In this document: positions 7,393-14,765 of the stretch, piece after piece | How positions within the stretch are numbered: position 1 is the first letter of the stretch | Layout of the letters: every line of letters begins with the position of its first letter | DNA from: Nannocystis pusilla | GTDB lineage: Bacteria; Myxococcota_A; Polyangia; Nannocystales; Nannocystaceae | Assembly: GCF_049060185.1 (NCBI RefSeq) | Contig: NZ_JBMEQO010000002.1 | DNA: 64,000 nt | Reading direction: 5' to 3' (one strand) | Notes under the pieces: generated by a model | What the model saw: the letters and a program-made list of their open reading frames with translations, nothing else | Database searches by the model: none | What the model was told of the DNA's origin: nothing | Translations under genes and position numbers: made by a program

Positions 7393-8078
7393 GTGAACGA
7401 GGACGCAGCCAGTCAAGCGGACGTCGGCGCGGACGCATCGCCCTCGCGGGCGCGTCCGCGAGTGTTGTTGGCCGACGATCACACGCTGGTCCGCGAGGGC
7501 CTGGTGCGCTTGCTGGCGGCCGAGCTCGAGATCGTGGGGGCGGTGGCCGACGGCCGCGCGCTCGTCTCGGCGGCCGAACAATGTCAACCCGACGTGGTGC
7601 TCGTCGACGTGACGATGCCGCTGCTCAACGGTTTCGACGCGGCGCGCCAACTGCAGCGAGTGTGCCCGCGAGGGCGGATCATCTTCGTCACGGTCCACGC
7701 GGAGCCGGATTACGTGCAGGAGGCGTTTCGCGCGGGAGCGCACGGTTATGTGGTGAAGACGGCCGCGTCGTCGGAGCTGTTGCTGGCGGTGCGTCGGGTG
7801 CTGGCCGGCGGCACCTTCGTGTCGCCGGGGCTGGTCTACGAGCCGCGGCCCGGCGCGCTCGAAGAGGGGCTGGTGGGGGCGAGCTGTCGTCGCGTCAACG
7901 CGAGGTGCTGCAGCTCGTCGCCGAGGGTCGGCCGGCTCGCGAGATCGGCGACATCCTCGGCATCTCGCGCAAGACGGTCGAGTTTCACAAGGCGCGACTC
8001 ATGCGAGTGCTGGGCCTGCGCACGGTCGCCGAGCTGACTCGCTATGCGGTCGAACACGGGCTGCTTCCGGGTCGCTGA
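7393..8078 (+). CDS. NarL/LuxR-family response regulator (REC + HTH_LuxR); 1-nt frameshift in a G6 run near 7875
   Basis: REC: RVLLADDHTLVREGLVRLL...VVLVDVTMPLLNGFDAARQL. HTH, in the adjacent frame: LSSRQREVLQLVAEGRPAREIGDILGISRKTVEFHKARLM. The start codon is GTG. Confidence 0.7.
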
Positions 8079-8154
8079 GGACCCATGCCATGGAGAGGAG
8101 CGGACACGTGCTTGAACTTCATGCTCAATCGGGTACGGTGTTCATGGATGGTTG

Positions 8155-8797
8155 CATGCGACCGCGAGTGATTCTCGTCGACGACCAGACGATGGTGCTC
8201 GAGTGCCTGAGCGTGTTGCTCGGCGGCGAGTTCGAGGTCGTCGGGGCGTTCACCGACGGGGCGAAGGCGCTGGCGGCCGCGCGCGAGCTGCAGCCCGACG
8301 TGGTGGCGCTCGAGCTCGAGCTGCCGACGCTGGGCGGGCTCGAACTGCTGCGCGCGCTGCAGACGAGCTCGGCGAGCCGCGCGGTGGTCGTCACGCGCCA
8401 CGCGGACCCGCAGTGGGCCCACTCGGCCCTGGCCGCGGGAGCCCGCGGGTACGTGCTCAAGGACGCGTCGCCGGAGGAGCTGGTCGCCGGGGTGCGCACG
8501 GTCGCCGCGGGCGGCAGCCACGTCAGCCCGGCGATCGAGGCGCTGCTCAAGGGGACGAGCGAGACGGCGCCGCGGCGACGCGGGGGCAACCTGCTCACCA
8601 CGCGTCAACGCGAGATCCTGGTCCGCGTCGCGTCGGGCATGGCGGGCAAGGAGATCGCCGGCGACCTGGGCATCGCGCTCAAGACGGTCGAGTTCCACAA
8701 GGCGCGGATCTCCCAGCAGCTCGGGCTGCGCTCGCGGGCGGCGATGACCCGCTACGCGCTCGAGCACGGGCTGGCGCCGCTGCGCAAGCGCGACTGA
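8155..8797 (+). CDS. NarL/LuxR-family response regulator (REC + HTH_LuxR), intact
   Basis: RVILVDDQTMVLECLSVLL...DVVALELELPTLGG is the REC domain. LTTRQREILVRVASGMAGKEIAGDLGIALKTVEFHKARI is the LuxR HTH. Confidence 0.85.
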
Positions 8798-8859
8798 CGA
8801 GCCGCGGGTGCCGTGACTGGCGGGATTGCAGCTCGACGCGCGGTAGGTGGGTCATGGGA

Positions 8860-12000: not shown

Positions 12001-13626
12001 GGAAAGAGTGCGGCGTGTGCATTTCGACGGGCAAGCGCGCGCCGCGGAGCGGCGAGCGGCCGGGATTGTACTCGACGGGGATCTGGAAGTGCGACGGGGT
12101 CTCGAGCGGCCGCTTGACGAAGATGCGGTGCTTCTTGTCGATGACGGCGAACAGGTCGGTCTGGGCGCCGACGGTCTCGGCGCCGCCGAGCATCAGGAAC
12201 CCGGACGGCTTGAGCGCGTAGTGGAAGACGGTCATCAGCTTGCGCTGCAGCACCGCGCCCATGTAGATGAGCACGTTGCGGCAGAGGATGAGGTCGAGCT
12301 TGGAGAACGGCGGGTCGCGGGTGACGTCCTGGCGGGCGAACACGCACAGGTCGCGCACGACCTTGGCGACGCGGTACTTGCCGTCGGTCTTGGTGAAGAA
12401 CCGGCGCAGCCGCTCGGGCGAGAGGTCGGCGGCGATGCTGTCGGCGTACAGGCCGTTGCGCGCGTGCTCGATCGCCGTCTCGCTGACGTCGGTGGCGAAG
12501 ATCTGTACCGGCACCGCGCTCGACTCCTCGCCGAGGAACTCGAGCAGGGCGATGGCCACCGAGTAGGCCTCCTCGCCGGTCGAGCAGCCCGGCAGCCACA
12601 GGCGGATCGGCGACAGGCCCCGGCGTTGCTGCACGATCTGCGGGAACACCTCGGAGGCGAGGGCCCGGAACGAGTCGGGGTCGCGGAAGAACCGGGTGAG
12701 GTGGATCAGGAGGTCCTGGTAGAGCTTGGCGACCTCCTCCGGGTTCTCGCGCATGTACTTGATGTACTGCTCCACGCTGTCGAGCTTGTGCAGGACCATG
12801 CGCCGCTGCAGCCGGCGCCGGATCGTCGGCGGCTTGTAGTGGGTGAAGTCGACGCCGCTGGCGTTGCGCAGCATGGTGAAGATGCGGTGCAGCTGCTCCT
12901 GGTGGATGACGAGCTCGTCGCCGGGCGCCGCGCGGTCGACGAGCGCACGTACGGGTGGCGACCGATCCGCTGCAGCTCCTCGGCGATCCGCGGCGGGCTG
13001 AGCACGAGGTCGACGCTGCAGTTGGCGAGCGCGGCGCGCGGCATGCTGTCGTGGCGGGCGGTCTCGGGGTCCTGGACGAGGGTGATGCCGCCGGCGCCCT
13101 TGATCTCGCGCAGGCCGGCCGAGCCGTCGACGCCCAGGCCCGACAAAATCACCCCGACGGCGCAGGTCTCGAGCTCGTGGGCGAGCGAGGCCATGAACGT
13201 GTCGATGAGGGTGTACTTGGTGCGGTCGTCGGGGATCGGGCCGGGCACCAGCCGCCGGCCGGCGACGGTCAGCTGGAGGTCGGGCAGCGCGAGATAGACG
13301 TGGTCGGGCTGGAGCGGGACCTCCTGATCGACGACGACGAGCGGCATGGTCGTGTGCGCGCGCAGGATCTCGGCGAGGCCGCTCTCGCGGCCGCGGGCCT
13401 GATGCGGGACGTAGACCAGCGCGATCCCGAGGTCGACCGGGAGCGCGTCGAGGATGTCGGTAAAGGCCTCCAGGCCGCCCGCGGAGGCGCCGACGCCGAC
13501 GACGAGCAAGCGCCCGGCGGCGGGACGACGGGCCTCGGCGGAGGCGTCTTCCTCGCCCTCGTCGGCGTTCTCGAGGGCCCGGGTAGGGGGCGGCGCGGCG
13601 GGCGGTGCTGCGGTCGGGGTCGGCAT
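9002..13626 (-). CDS. fused CheB methylesterase - CheR methyltransferase - coiled coil - PAS x2-3 - HisKA_3/HATPase_c sensor kinase of about 1540 aa; four or more 1-nt frame breaks in homopolymers
   Basis: Order N to C: CheB (LLVVGVGASAGGLEAF...GVILSGLGVDGSAGL); CheR (FRDPDSFRAL...WLPGCSTGEEAYSVAIALLE); NEEL heptad coiled coil; PAS (YEHAPIAYLALDGNGVV..., GAGLFDYSWPADL...); HisKA_3 (LATLLHDVLGQQLVAARLQL); HATPase_c (LLNVVKHAEATAARVEV...DDGKGFDP...GLLSVRERI). Segments sit in adjacent frames joined near 12930, 10600, 9780 and 9055. Confidence 0.75.
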
Positions 13627-13682
13627 GGTGGGCGTGCAGCCCAGTCGAGCGGCACGGGCAGAGGAACTCGGGTCCTCGATCG

Positions 13683-14765
13683 TCAATCGTCGGGCGCTCC
13701 GGCCAGGTCGATGGAGGGCAGGTCGGGCTGCGGCAGGTCGGGCGGCGGCGCGGTCGGGGTCGGCGGCGTCAGTTGCACGGAGGTGCGGTTCAGCAGCGGC
13801 CGCAGCGTGGTGGCGTACTCCTCGATCTCGACGGCGTTCTGCTCGTACTGCCGCGACAGCGCGAGCAACCCGGCCGAGCCGGTGCGCTCGGCCTGCCGAC
13901 GGTACAGCGCGGCGTTCTCCTCGAGCGCCCGCAGGGCGCCCCACAAGGCACCCTCGAGCTTGGAGCCCTGCTCGGCCAGCAGCACCTCGGCGGTGAAGCC
14001 GTGGCCGACGTGACAGCGGAAGCGCAGCAGCTTGTCGCCGTCGGCCAGCTCCCACAGCGCGCCGCCGCATTCAGGGCAGGTGAACGGCGAGCGCGGGCCG
14101 GGCGGCTCGCTGTGCTGGAGCGCGGTGCCGTATTCGGCGGTGTCCTCGGTCTGGGCGGCCGGCGCCTGGGTGTCGGCCACGTGCTGCCGGATGAGCTGGC
14201 TCAAGACCTCGGGGATCGCGGCGGCCCGCAGGACGCTGTGGACCTCGACGGTCTGGATCGCCGACAGCGGCATGCTGGGGATCGTGGCTTCGGCCGGGTC
14301 CTGGGCGATCGCCAGGCCGCCGGCCTCGGTGATGCGCAGCAGACCCTCGGTGCCGTCGTTGAGGCCGCCCGAGAGGATGACGCCGATGACGCGCGCGCCG
14401 TAGGCGGAGGCGGCGCTGCGGAACAGCGGGTCGACCGCCGGGCGGAAGCCGTTCTCCTTGGGCCCGCGGGTGACTCGCACGTAGGCGCGCTTGACGAGCA
14501 AGTGATGATCGGGGCGGGCGACGTAGATCCGGCCGCGCTCGATGGCCTGGCGGTCCTCGGCGAGGGCGGCCGGCAGGACCGTGGCCCGCCCCAGCAGGGT
14601 CGACAGCATCCCGGGGTTGTCGGGCGACATGTGCATCGCCACGAACACCGCGGCCGGGAAATCGCTCGGCAGCCCGCGCACGATGTCGAGCAACGCGGTG
14701 AGGCCGCCGGCGGATGCCCCCATCACGACGATGTCACGCGGTGCGGTGGGGTTCGCTTTCGGCAA
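13683..14765 (-). CDS. stand-alone CheB-type methylesterase (no receiver) with C-terminal Cys/His-containing domain
   Basis: IVVMGASAGGLTAL...AVFVAMHMSPD...GVILSGGLNDGTEGL...QDPAEATIPSMP, then FTCPECGGAL...RFRCHVGHGF. The ORF is intact. Confidence 0.8.
   Translation of the reverse strand: MPKANPTAPRDIVVMGASAGGLTALLDIVRGLPSDFPAAVFVAMHMSPDNPGMLSTLLGRATVLPAALAEDRQAIERGRIYVARPDHHLLVKRAYVRVTRGPKENGFRPAVDPLFRSAASAYGARVIGVILSGGLNDGTEGLLRITEAGGLAIAQDPAEATIPSMPLSAIQTVEVHSVLRAAAIPEVLSQLIRQHVADTQAPAAQTEDTAEYGTALQHSEPPGPRSPFTCPECGGALWELADGDKLLRFRCHVGHGFTAEVLLAEQGSKLEGALWGALRALEENAALYRRQAERTGSAGLLALSRQYEQNAVEIEEYATTLRPLLNRTSVQLTPPTPTAPPPDLPQPDLPSIDLAGAPDD

What the first reader, a model, noticed from the sequence alone, without database searches (positions are those of the whole stretch)
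7393..14765. CheB-CheR-PAS-HisKA_3 mega-kinase with an extra stand-alone CheB-like protein and two NarL-type regulators, but no MCP, CheA or CheW
One minus-strand gene of about 4.6 kb fuses a CheB methylesterase domain, a CheR methyltransferase domain, a long NEEL-heptad coiled coil, PAS domains, and a NarL-class (HisKA_3) kinase core. Directly upstream is a second receiver-less CheB-like protein with a Cys/His C-terminal domain (FTCPECGG...RFRCHVGHGF). Two NarL/LuxR response regulators converge on the kinase. The heptad Q/E-rich coiled coil ([50 protein letters not shown]) carries Glu pairs at heptad positions, as receptor methylation sites do. This suggests a kinase modulated by self-methylation and demethylation, feeding a transcriptional output rather than a flagellar one. 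CheB/CheR-PAS fusion proteins are a recognised but essentially uncharacterised architecture. The HisKA_3 end, the dual NarL regulators and the extra CheB paralog make this a coherent candidate for an undescribed adaptation-type two-component pathway.
Basis: partly seen in the sequence, partly recalled or inferred. Interest (0 to 1): 0.7.

Follow-up and report, generated by a model that had tools for sequence, protein, structure and literature searches.

The report
MCP-less CheB/CheR sensor-kinase gene cassette

Summary
The domains are all present, but the gene model is wrong. The "4.6 kb mega-kinase" is two translationally coupled genes. One is a 1012-aa CheB-CheR-coil-PAS_10-PAS_4 fusion (13626→10592). 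The other is a 531-aa PAS-PAS_3-HisKA_3-HATPase kinase (10595→9002). A real TGA stop separates them inside a GTGA overlap, and this overlap is conserved in three other Nannocystis genomes. The other frame breaks (≈12922, ≈9782, ≈9049, ≈7874) are 1-nt homopolymer deletions. The same defect occurs in unrelated genes of the window, so they are assembly errors.

The upstream receiver-less CheB with a Cys/His domain and the two convergent NarL-type regulators are confirmed.

The five-gene cassette is conserved in Nannocystaceae. Among 80 genomes from many phyla, the CheBR protein is fused to a kinase in 32 and directly followed by one in at least 17. Four Acidobacteriota carry true CheBR-HisKA_3 fusions. 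This supports functional coupling between CheBR and the kinase.

The NEEL coil is almost invariant, with Glu-Glu pairs 98-100% conserved every seven residues. That fits, but does not prove, a built-in methyl-accepting helix.

I found no experimental literature. Verdict: a new member of a known, annotated (KEGG K13924) but uncharacterised kind.

The parts
13683..14765 (-). Stand-alone receiver-less CheB-like methylesterase (360 aa, TTG start). It has a C-terminal Cys/His zinc-ribbon followed by a helical hairpin.
   Evidence: Intact ORF. Pfam CheB_methylest at residues 13-187, E=5e-54. Ser164/His190/Asp286 equivalents align with 1A2O. In the C-terminal domain, C230, C233, C251, H252 and H255 are at least 90% conserved in 120 homologues. 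AF2 predicts a beta ribbon at 225-258 and helices at 259-297 and 301-331. No Pfam, NCBIfam or PDB match for the C-terminal domain. Orthologues are present in L001, L002, L004 and L007.
10592..13626 (-). cheBR-PAS gene: CheB - CheR_N/CheR - unannotated PAS-like domain - about 92-residue helix - PAS_10 - PAS_4 (1012 aa after correction). It is broken in the window by a 1-nt deletion at ≈12922.
   Evidence: Pfam on the two frames. 91% identical to the intact 1011-aa protein of Nannocystis sp. RBIL2. The deletion lies in a CCC/GGG run relative to both L001 and L002. The stop at 10592-10594 is conserved. AF2 domain map. CheB triad conserved. CheR is homologous to 5XLX/1AF7.
11318..11596 (-). NEEL heptad helix within cheBR: ...[78 protein letters not shown].
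   Evidence: Read directly from the sequence. Almost every position is conserved in more than 70% (most in more than 90%) of 120 homologues, and the EE pairs are 98-100% conserved. It is a single continuous helix, residues 680-771, in the AF2 model of the orthologue.
9002..10595 (-). Separate sensor kinase gene (531 aa after correction): PAS - PAS_3 - HisKA_3 - HATPase_c. Its GTG start overlaps the cheBR stop (GTGA). It carries 1-nt deletions at ≈9782 and ≈9049.
   Evidence: Pfam and NCBIfam NarQ/UhpB/LiaS-class hits. Orthologous separate genes of 531-535 aa in L001, L002 and L004. Deletions lie in C/G runs. The true C-terminus ...GQGTRVELHIPLAES* ends at 9002.
8156..8797 (+). RR2, a NarL/LuxR-type regulator (213 aa, intact). 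It has Glu in place of the phospho-acceptor Asp (VVALELELP).
   Evidence: Pfam Response_reg plus GerE. The D-to-E change is conserved in L001, L002 and L004 orthologues, whereas RR1 keeps Asp.
7393..8078 (+). RR1, a NarL/LuxR-type regulator (about 228 aa after correction) with a canonical Asp. It is broken by a 1-nt deletion at ≈7874. The start codon is uncertain.
   Evidence: Response_reg in one frame and GerE in another. The deletion lies in a C run relative to L001. 96-100% identical to the L001 orthologue.
8871..9042 (.). About 3.6 copies of a 44-nt tandem repeat, spanning the last 40 nt of the kinase gene and the convergent intergenic gap. Each copy holds a CCGCTC-N5-GAGCGG hairpin.
   Evidence: Tandem Repeats Finder. 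Sequence and motif search. Copy number differs in L001 and L002. Function not tested.

Best explanation
This is a five-gene two-component module of Nannocystis pusilla. The genes are cheB-like (with a zinc-ribbon/hairpin tail), cheBR-PAS, a PAS-HisKA_3 kinase, and two convergent NarL-type regulators.

Shown:
- cheBR-PAS and the kinase are two genes joined by a GTGA stop/start overlap.
- The other frame breaks are homopolymer assembly errors.
- The cassette is conserved in Nannocystaceae.
- Across phyla the CheBR-PAS module is usually fused to, or directly followed by, a histidine kinase of varying class.

Inferred:
- The CheBR-PAS protein is the sensory and adaptation partner of the kinase, probably through PAS/coiled-coil contacts.
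- Its CheR domain methylates, and its CheB domain (plus the extra stand-alone CheB) demethylates, the invariant Glu-Glu pairs spaced every seven residues on its own long helix. This would set the gain or memory of the kinase, much as receptor methylation does for CheA.
- Neither CheB has a receiver domain. Any feedback would therefore have to come from the conformation of the substrate helix rather than from CheB phosphorylation.
- Output is transcriptional, through RR1. RR2 (Asp to Glu) probably acts without phosphorylation.
For: Gene structure:
- locate the frame breaks and the stop. Searches show separate 1006-1019-aa and 531-532-aa genes with the same GTGA overlap in other Nannocystis.

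Artefact nature of the frameshifts:
- All four are single-base deletions in C/G runs.
- At least nine more of the same kind occur in unrelated genes of the window, and there are no 1-nt insertions in the window within the compared genes.

Coupling to a kinase:
- 32 of 80 genome loci have CheBR fused to a kinase domain, at least 17 have a kinase immediately downstream, and 6 more have one within 3 kb.
- Pfam-verified CheB-CheR-PAS_10-PAS-HisKA_3-HATPase single ORFs are followed by REC-GerE in L059 and L072, and by my own profiles in L080.
- The full cassette recurs at 68% identity in L004 and in fragmented form in L089.

Enzymes look active:
- The CheB Ser/His/Asp triad is present in both copies. 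The CheR SAM-domain is homologous to solved CheRs.

Coil as substrate:
- EE pairs are 98-100% invariant, and the surface positions are invariant too, which a purely structural coiled coil would not need.
- EE is also 100% conserved at a heptad that was not part of the search pattern, in 80 loci from about 10 phyla.
[quoted passage not shown] Tsr sites 297/304/311 are likewise 7 residues apart (PMC1079850).

Independence from chemotaxis:
- No MCP, CheW or CheA lies nearby.
- The family occurs in Bacteroidota (L074).
- In Phaeobacter the CheB-CheR chimera is not co-regulated with the che regulon (bioRxiv 10.1101/2025.03.24.645028).
Against: - No methylation has been demonstrated for any member of the family, and I found no experimental paper.
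- The coil has no detectable homology to the MCP signalling domain.
- No heptad matches the strict EEXXA[ST] consensus, because position +4 is Ser/Thr and not Ala.
- About 25 of 80 CheBR loci have no kinase nearby, so kinase control cannot be the only role of the family.
- The coil was only ever seen in cis with CheR. This is also what a purely structural linker would show.
- The stand-alone CheB is present in only 9 of 80 loci.
- The AF2 monomer model gives one straight helix and says nothing about docking into the active sites.
Confidence: 0.5

Rival explanations
1. The CheBR-PAS protein is a PAS-regulated adaptation enzyme that methylates and demethylates conventional chemoreceptors encoded elsewhere in the genome. 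The neighbouring kinase and regulators only control or accompany it.
For: Both enzyme domains are typical CheB and CheR by sequence, with catalytic residues intact. Myxobacteria usually carry several che clusters (my own knowledge). About 25 of 80 loci have no adjacent kinase.
Against: Tight and repeated fusion or adjacency to non-CheA kinases. No MCP, CheW or CheA in any of the six Pfam-annotated neighbourhoods I read in full. The family is present in Bacteroidota, a phylum that largely lacks chemosensory systems (my own knowledge, not tested). It is not co-regulated with che genes in Phaeobacter. This rival does not explain the near-invariant coil.
Confidence: 0.2
2. The enzymes modify another protein of the cassette, such as the kinase, a PAS linker or a regulator. 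The NEEL helix is only a rigid dimerisation and signalling helix, or an autoinhibitory pseudo-substrate.
For: The helix lies exactly where signalling helices lie, directly before a PAS domain. The coil is never found apart from CheR. The extra CheB carries its own helical hairpin, which could target another partner.
Against: Kinase class varies among HisKA, HisKA_2/HWE and HisKA_3, and a quarter or more of loci lack a kinase, so no partner is constant except the CheBR protein itself. A structural coil would not need invariant solvent-exposed Glu-Glu, Asn, Gln and Ser.
Confidence: 0.2
3. The locus is a decaying pseudogene cluster. The frameshifts are real mutations and the system is dead in this strain.
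For: Four of the five genes carry frame-breaking single-base deletions in the window as given.
Against: The same kind of deletion, always minus one base in a homopolymer, hits unrelated genes across at least 24 kb: a beta-lactamase-like gene, a 294-aa gene with five, and a 106-aa gene. Apart from these deletions the coding sequence is 90-97% identical to intact orthologues, with no premature stops or larger lesions. The source is a 12.7-Mb single-contig assembly, which is typical of long-read data.
Confidence: 0.05
4. One reading: one 4.6-kb gene encoding a CheB-CheR-PAS-HisKA_3 mega-kinase.
For: Such proteins exist in Acidobacteriota.
Against: The in-frame TGA at 10592-10594 is conserved, with a GTGA overlap, in four Nannocystis genomes. 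There is no indel near it relative to L001. The orthologues are called as two genes.
Confidence: 0.02

Closest known systems
CheB/CheR fusion proteins (KEGG K13924; NCBI/JGI names 'two-component system, chemotaxis family, CheB/CheR fusion protein' and 'PAS domain-containing protein')
   Same: Same domain order: CheB - CheR_N/CheR - NEEL coil - PAS_10 - PAS. It is 85-91% identical to annotated Nannocystis proteins and 54-60% identical to members from Planctomycetota and other phyla.
   Different: Nothing distinguishes it from the family. Here it sits in a five-gene cassette with an extra CheB and two NarL regulators, which only a minority of loci have. The family has no experimentally defined function that I could find.
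MCP / CheR / CheB adaptation system of chemotaxis (E. coli Tsr/Tar, CheR, CheB)
   Same: Homologous methyltransferase and methylesterase with catalytic residues conserved. A helix carrying Glu-Glu pairs at 7-residue spacing, resembling EEXXA(S/T). The presumed purpose is tuning a histidine kinase.
   Different: No MCP signalling domain, CheW or CheA. The kinase is a class HisKA_3 dimeric sensor kinase. The enzymes are covalently tethered to the putative substrate. Neither CheB has a receiver domain, so the phospho-feedback loop is absent. Output is a transcription factor and not the flagellar motor.
Chemosensory-like pathways with non-motility outputs (for example Wsp of Pseudomonas and Che3/Frz-type systems of Myxococcus)
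   Same: They use CheR/CheB-type modification to regulate something other than flagella.
   Different: Those systems still contain an MCP, CheW and a CheA-type kinase (my own knowledge). This cassette has none of them.
NarL/LuxR-family two-component systems with HisKA_3 kinases (NarX/NarQ-NarL, UhpB-UhpA, LiaS-LiaR)
   Same: The kinase core and both regulators belong to this class.
   Different: The kinase is cytoplasmic and PAS-based. It is coupled to a CheBR-PAS partner. One of the two regulators has Glu at the phospho-acceptor position.

Membership tests
CheB/CheR fusion protein family (K13924) | CheB methylesterase and CheR methyltransferase domains in one polypeptide | tested here: met
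   Both domains are found by Pfam. In the window they lie in two frames, separated by a 1-nt homopolymer deletion at ≈12922 with no stop in the corrected path. Orthologues at 85-91% identity are single ORFs.
CheB/CheR fusion protein family (K13924) | Conserved NEEL-heptad helix followed by a PAS_10 domain | tested here: met
   PAS_10 E=2e-25. The coil aligns column for column with 120 homologues.
CheB/CheR fusion protein family (K13924) | Catalytic residues of both enzymes present | tested here: met
   Ser164/His190/Asp286 equivalents align with 1A2O. The CheR SAM-domain aligns over its full length with 5XLX/1AF7, including the G-C-S-T-G-E-E and C-R-N-V-L-I-Y motifs. Enzyme activity itself was not tested.
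Single-polypeptide CheBR-histidine kinase ('signal transduction histidine kinase with CheB and CheR activity') | Kinase core (H-box domain plus HATPase_c) in the same ORF as CheB and CheR | tested here: not met
   A TGA at 10592-10594 ends the CheBR ORF and the kinase starts at the overlapping GTG. This is conserved in L001, L002 and L010. It is met elsewhere, in L055, L059, L072 and L080.
Canonical chemosensory pathway (MCP-CheW-CheA-CheY with CheR/CheB) | MCP signalling domain, CheW and CheA encoded with the CheR/CheB genes | tested here: not met
   None in the Pfam-annotated ±10 kb of L001 and L002. No tblastn hit better than E=1.9 for the Tsr signalling domain or CheW in the 64-kb window. 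CheA was not searched separately, and the rest of the genome was not available.
Canonical chemosensory pathway (MCP-CheW-CheA-CheY with CheR/CheB) | CheB carries an N-terminal receiver domain for phospho-feedback | tested here: not met
   Neither CheB copy has a Response_reg match. The catalytic domain starts at residue 13 in the stand-alone protein and about residue 40 in the fusion.
Methyl-accepting helix (substrate of CheR/CheB) | [quoted passage not shown] | tested here: inconclusive
   There are eight EE pairs at heptad spacing. Five are followed by x-x-[S/T]-[A/S/T], and none has Ala at +4. Methylation is not testable with these tools.
NarL/LuxR-type two-component system | HisKA_3 kinase with a conserved His, and a REC-GerE regulator with a phospho-acceptor Asp | tested here: met
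   HisKA_3 and HATPase_c are present, with the H-box LLHDVLGQQL. RR1 has the Asp. RR2 has Glu at that position and fails this feature.

The most novel reading that the evidence does not exclude
The invariant NEEL helix is a built-in methyl-accepting segment. CheBR-PAS proteins would then be self-modifying sensor modules that give ordinary two-component kinases a methylation-based adaptation or memory, with no MCP, CheW or CheA involved. This would be a second, widespread use of the chemotaxis adaptation chemistry. It is present in at least 600 species-level genomes, and in Nannocystis it feeds a transcriptional output.
Probability: 0.35. Interest if true: 0.75.

Novelty: new member of a known kind. 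Interest (0 to 1): 0.45.

Why it matters
Reversible glutamate methylation is the textbook mechanism of sensory adaptation, but it is known only on chemoreceptors that signal through CheA. The family found here is very large: at least 7975 protein clusters and at least 600 genome hits across many phyla. It tethers the same two enzymes to a near-invariant Glu-Glu heptad helix and to ordinary sensor kinases. If the helix is the substrate, adaptation by methylation would extend to classical two-component transcriptional control.

The Nannocystis cassette is a convenient test case for three reasons. The sensor/enzyme and kinase are separate polypeptides. There is an extra dedicated esterase. There is a clear transcriptional output.

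For the scan itself, the practical lesson is that this window carries systematic homopolymer deletions. Any long fused ORF or pseudogene inferred from it needs frame checking against relatives.

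Tried and rejected
1. Reading the region as one frame-corrected 1538-aa protein. Rejected because all close homologues stop at about 1010 aa and the stop is conserved.
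2. Treating the frame breaks as locus-specific decay. Rejected after finding the same defect in unrelated genes.
3. Literature searches for CheBR, CheB/CheR fusion, K13924 and related product names. These gave only annotation tables and one remark on Phaeobacter, with no functional study. Subscription-only papers are not covered by the library.
4. Identifying the Cys/His C-terminal domain of the extra CheB through Pfam, NCBIfam, PDB sequence search and Foldseek on the whole model. Only the CheB fold matched.
5. Looking for genuine stand-alone coil-PAS proteins that would be methylated in trans. The short hits on long contigs turned out to be pieces of frameshifted CheBR genes in long-read MAGs.
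6. The conservation figures from the 80 genome loci are partly circular for two heptads, because the loci were retrieved with the peptides ELQSANEE and QSTNEELD. I therefore rely mainly on the whole-protein search.
7. The promoter/terminator scan of 7000-15600 gave nothing above the shuffle expectation.
8. My H-box regular expressions left 19 of 54 kinases unclassified, so the class counts are lower bounds.

Full report
**1. What is in the sequence**

The window is about 72% G+C, so long spurious ORFs abound.

On the minus strand between 8752 and 14765 there are five overlapping ORFs in three frames. Pfam places these domains on them:
- 13683-14765: CheB_methylest.
- 12706-14070: a second CheB_methylest.
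- 10592-12874: CheR_N, CheR, a coiled coil, PAS_10 and PAS_4.
- 9705-12599: PAS/PAS_4 and PAS_3.
- 8752-9999: HisKA_3 and HATPase_c.

On the plus strand:
- 7393-8037 holds a receiver domain and 7350-8078 holds a GerE helix-turn-helix, in another frame.
- 8090-8797 is an intact REC-GerE regulator.

**2. Frame breaks and the real gene boundaries**

Three-frame translation of the junctions shows protein continuity across frame changes at about 12940, 9780, 9049 and, in RR1, 7874.

At 10592 the frame-1 ORF ends in ...SSAPPATAPA* and the next frame continues from a GTG that overlaps the TGA.

A search with the fully "corrected" 1538-aa protein settled the matter. The best hits come from Nannocystis sp. 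RBIL2 (91% identity), N. pusilla (89%), N. punicea (87%) and N. exedens (85%). They are 1006-1019 aa long, cover only 63-65% of the query, and have no kinase domains.

Their annotated loci show this order:
- CheB-like (338-351 aa).
- CheB/CheR-PAS (1006-1011 aa).
- A PAS-PAS_3-HisKA_3-HATPase_c kinase (531-532 aa) that overlaps the preceding gene by 4 nt.
- Two convergent REC-GerE regulators.

The DNA around the boundary reads GCGTGACC in the window and in L001, and TCGTGATC in L002. The GTGA stop/start overlap is therefore conserved.

After correction the window encodes a 1012-aa CheBR-PAS protein (13626→10592) and a 531-aa kinase (10595→9002).

**3. The frameshifts are assembly errors**

A three-way DNA alignment with L001 and L002 finds, inside coding sequence, exactly four single-base gaps in the window relative to L001, at about 12922, 9782, 9049 and 7874. 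L002 shows the first three; at the RR1 site it carries a 2-nt gap of its own instead. Each lies in a run of C or G.

Other genes of the window show the same thing relative to L001:
- A beta-lactamase-like gene, a 294-aa gene and a 106-aa gene are split across frames.
- The causes are 1-nt deletions in homopolymers at about 23119, 22872, 5602, 5577, 5546, 5379, 4874 and 4498, plus a 2-nt deletion at 4658.
- Within the compared genes there is no 1-nt insertion in the window.

One intact protein of the window is identical to a Nannocystis pusilla protein from a 12.69-Mb contig. This fits a long-read assembly.

I therefore treat the genes as intact in the organism. The chance that the locus is truly decayed is about 5%.

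**4. Anatomy of the proteins**

*CheBR-PAS protein.* The AF2 model of the RBIL2 orthologue has mean pLDDT 84.5. Its domains are:
- CheB, residues 40-228.
- CheR, 243-505.
- A further α/β PAS-like domain, 541-655, that no Pfam model detects.
- One uninterrupted helix, 680-771.
- PAS_10, 774-868.
- PAS_4, 896-995.

*The two CheB copies.* Both keep the Ser164/His190/Asp286 equivalents of Salmonella CheB. The residue numbering is from my own knowledge of 1A2O. Both lack a receiver domain.

*CheR.* The domain aligns over its full length with solved CheRs.

*The stand-alone CheB.* It has a C-terminal domain in which C230, C233, C251, H252 and H255 are at least 90% conserved. AF2 models this as a small β zinc-ribbon followed by a two-helix hairpin. 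It matches nothing in Pfam, NCBIfam or the PDB.

*The kinase.* It has a normal H-box (LLHDVLGQQL) and ATP-binding domain, and its C-terminus is GQGTRVELHIPLAES.

*The regulators.* RR1 has a canonical acceptor Asp. RR2 has Glu at that position, in the window and in three orthologous loci. RR2 is therefore a conserved atypical regulator.

**5. The coil**

The helix carries eight heptads of the form x-N-E-E-L-x-S/T.

In 120 homologues at 54-91% overall identity, almost every position of the helix is conserved in more than 90% of sequences, including positions that must face solvent. The Glu-Glu pairs are 98-100% conserved and are never Gln.

In 80 genome loci from about ten phyla, the EE pair of a heptad that was not part of the retrieval pattern is still 100% conserved. 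The two heptads used for retrieval cannot be counted as evidence.

[quoted passage not shown] Five of the heptads here read EE-x-x-[S/T]-[A/S/T], and none has Ala at +4.

The resemblance to receptor sites is real but inexact, and there is no homology to the MCP signalling domain.

**6. Distribution and gene context**

The family is very large. At least 600 stretches were found in species-representative genomes. These came from Acidobacteriota, Myxococcota, Planctomycetota, Gemmatimonadota, several proteobacterial classes, Bacteroidota, NC10 and Verrucomicrobiota.

I called ORFs in all the loci and searched them with profiles built iteratively from the window's own domains. Among the 80 genome loci:
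- 32 have a kinase domain in the same ORF as CheBR.
- 16 by script, plus N. punicea by inspection, have a kinase gene immediately downstream.
- 6 have a kinase within 3 kb.
- About 25 have none, and some of these lie at contig ends.

H-box motifs assign the 32 fused kinases to HisKA (14), HisKA_2/HWE (6) and HisKA_3 (4). The remaining 8 could not be classified.

Pfam confirms four single-ORF CheB-CheR-PAS_10-PAS-HisKA_3-HATPase_c proteins in Acidobacteriota, and confirms a REC-GerE gene after two of them, L059 and L072. L080 also has one by my own profiles.

A stand-alone CheB is adjacent in 9 of 80 loci, and 7 of these carry the Cys/His domain.

The full five-gene cassette is present in L001, L002, L010 and, at 68% identity, L004. 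A related form is in L089.

Pfam-annotated neighbourhoods from a Pirellulales MAG and two metagenome contigs show further variants:
- A hybrid HisKA kinase downstream.
- A fused HisKA kinase with an upstream CheB.
- No kinase at all.

**7. Mechanism**

Shown:
- Two coupled genes.
- A conserved cassette.
- Repeated fusion or adjacency of CheBR-PAS to kinases of different classes (Rosetta-stone evidence for a functional link).
- Catalytically competent-looking enzymes.
- An exceptionally constrained Glu-Glu helix.
- No MCP, CheW or CheA nearby.

Inferred:
- The CheBR-PAS protein pairs with the kinase through its PAS domains and helix.
- CheR and the two CheBs write and erase methyl esters on the helix, and this sets kinase output to RR1.
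- With no receiver domain on either CheB, feedback would have to be at substrate level.

My estimates:
- Functional partnership with the kinase: about 0.8.
- The coil being the methylation substrate: about 0.35-0.4.

Rivals:
- Action on distant MCPs (0.2).
- Another substrate, with a purely structural or pseudo-substrate coil (0.2).
- True pseudogenes (0.05).
- The one-gene model (0.02 or less).

**8. Comparison with what is known, and novelty**

The protein is a plain member of the annotated CheB/CheR fusion family (KEGG K13924). Orthologues already carry that name in N. exedens.

I found no functional study in the held library. The only relevant remark is that the Phaeobacter chimera is not co-regulated with the chemotaxis genes.

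It works like the receptor adaptation system only by analogy, and it fails the membership tests for a chemosensory pathway.

I rate it a new member of a known but uncharacterised kind, with interest 0.45. The specific claim of a mega-kinase is wrong and the locus is typical of its family. The family itself remains an open and now well-framed question.

Noticed in passing
window, whole; examples at 23119, 22872, 5602, 5577, 5546, 5379, 4874, 4658, 4498, 12922, 9782, 9049, 7874: There are systematic single-base deletions in C/G homopolymers relative to Nannocystis sp. RBIL2. They break at least seven genes within the 24 kb that could be compared. This looks like uncorrected long-read assembly error, so any ORF-length argument in this window needs frame checking.
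   Followed up: yes
window 44500-50450, minus strand: A second MCP-less CheR/CheB two-component cluster. Its gene order is: GAF-HisKA-HATPase-REC-REC hybrid kinase, CheR (CheR_N plus SAM domain, split across frames), a receiver-less CheB, then REC-HisKA-HATPase-REC. A GAF-HisKA kinase lies nearby at 41046-42674 (+). It has no NEEL coil.
   Followed up: partly
window 8156-8797 (+): RR2 has Glu instead of the phospho-acceptor Asp (VVALELELP). The change is conserved in the three orthologous loci examined. It is probably a phosphorylation-independent NarL-type regulator paired with the canonical RR1.
   Followed up: partly
window 8871-9042: A 44-nt tandem repeat of about 3.6 copies begins inside the last codons of the kinase gene, so the peptide ending ...HIPLAES is echoed downstream in other frames. 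Each unit contains a CCGCTC-N5-GAGCGG hairpin. Copy number differs between Nannocystis genomes.
   Followed up: partly
L001 protein P0001 residues 541-655 (window about 11650-12020, minus strand): A conserved α/β PAS-like domain lies between CheR and the coil. It is predicted with high confidence by AF2 but matched by no Pfam model. Its invariant residues include P556, F570, G572, G583, R596 and G598.
   Followed up: partly
window 14957-15490 (-) and 18114-18503 (+); L001/L002 flanks: The neighbours look stress-related. They include a 178-aa protein with a helical N-terminus and a Gly/Gln/Met-rich tail, a KGG-repeat-type small protein, two hemerythrin-like genes and, in N. exedens, a Cu-Zn superoxide dismutase next to RR1. 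This hints at an oxidative or general stress regulon.
   Followed up: no
L088, L089, L090 (ENA long-read metagenome contigs): Short database 'proteins' consisting of only the coil plus PAS_10 are fragments of CheBR genes shredded by frameshifts in long-read MAGs. They could be mistaken for stand-alone methyl-accepting proteins.
   Followed up: yes
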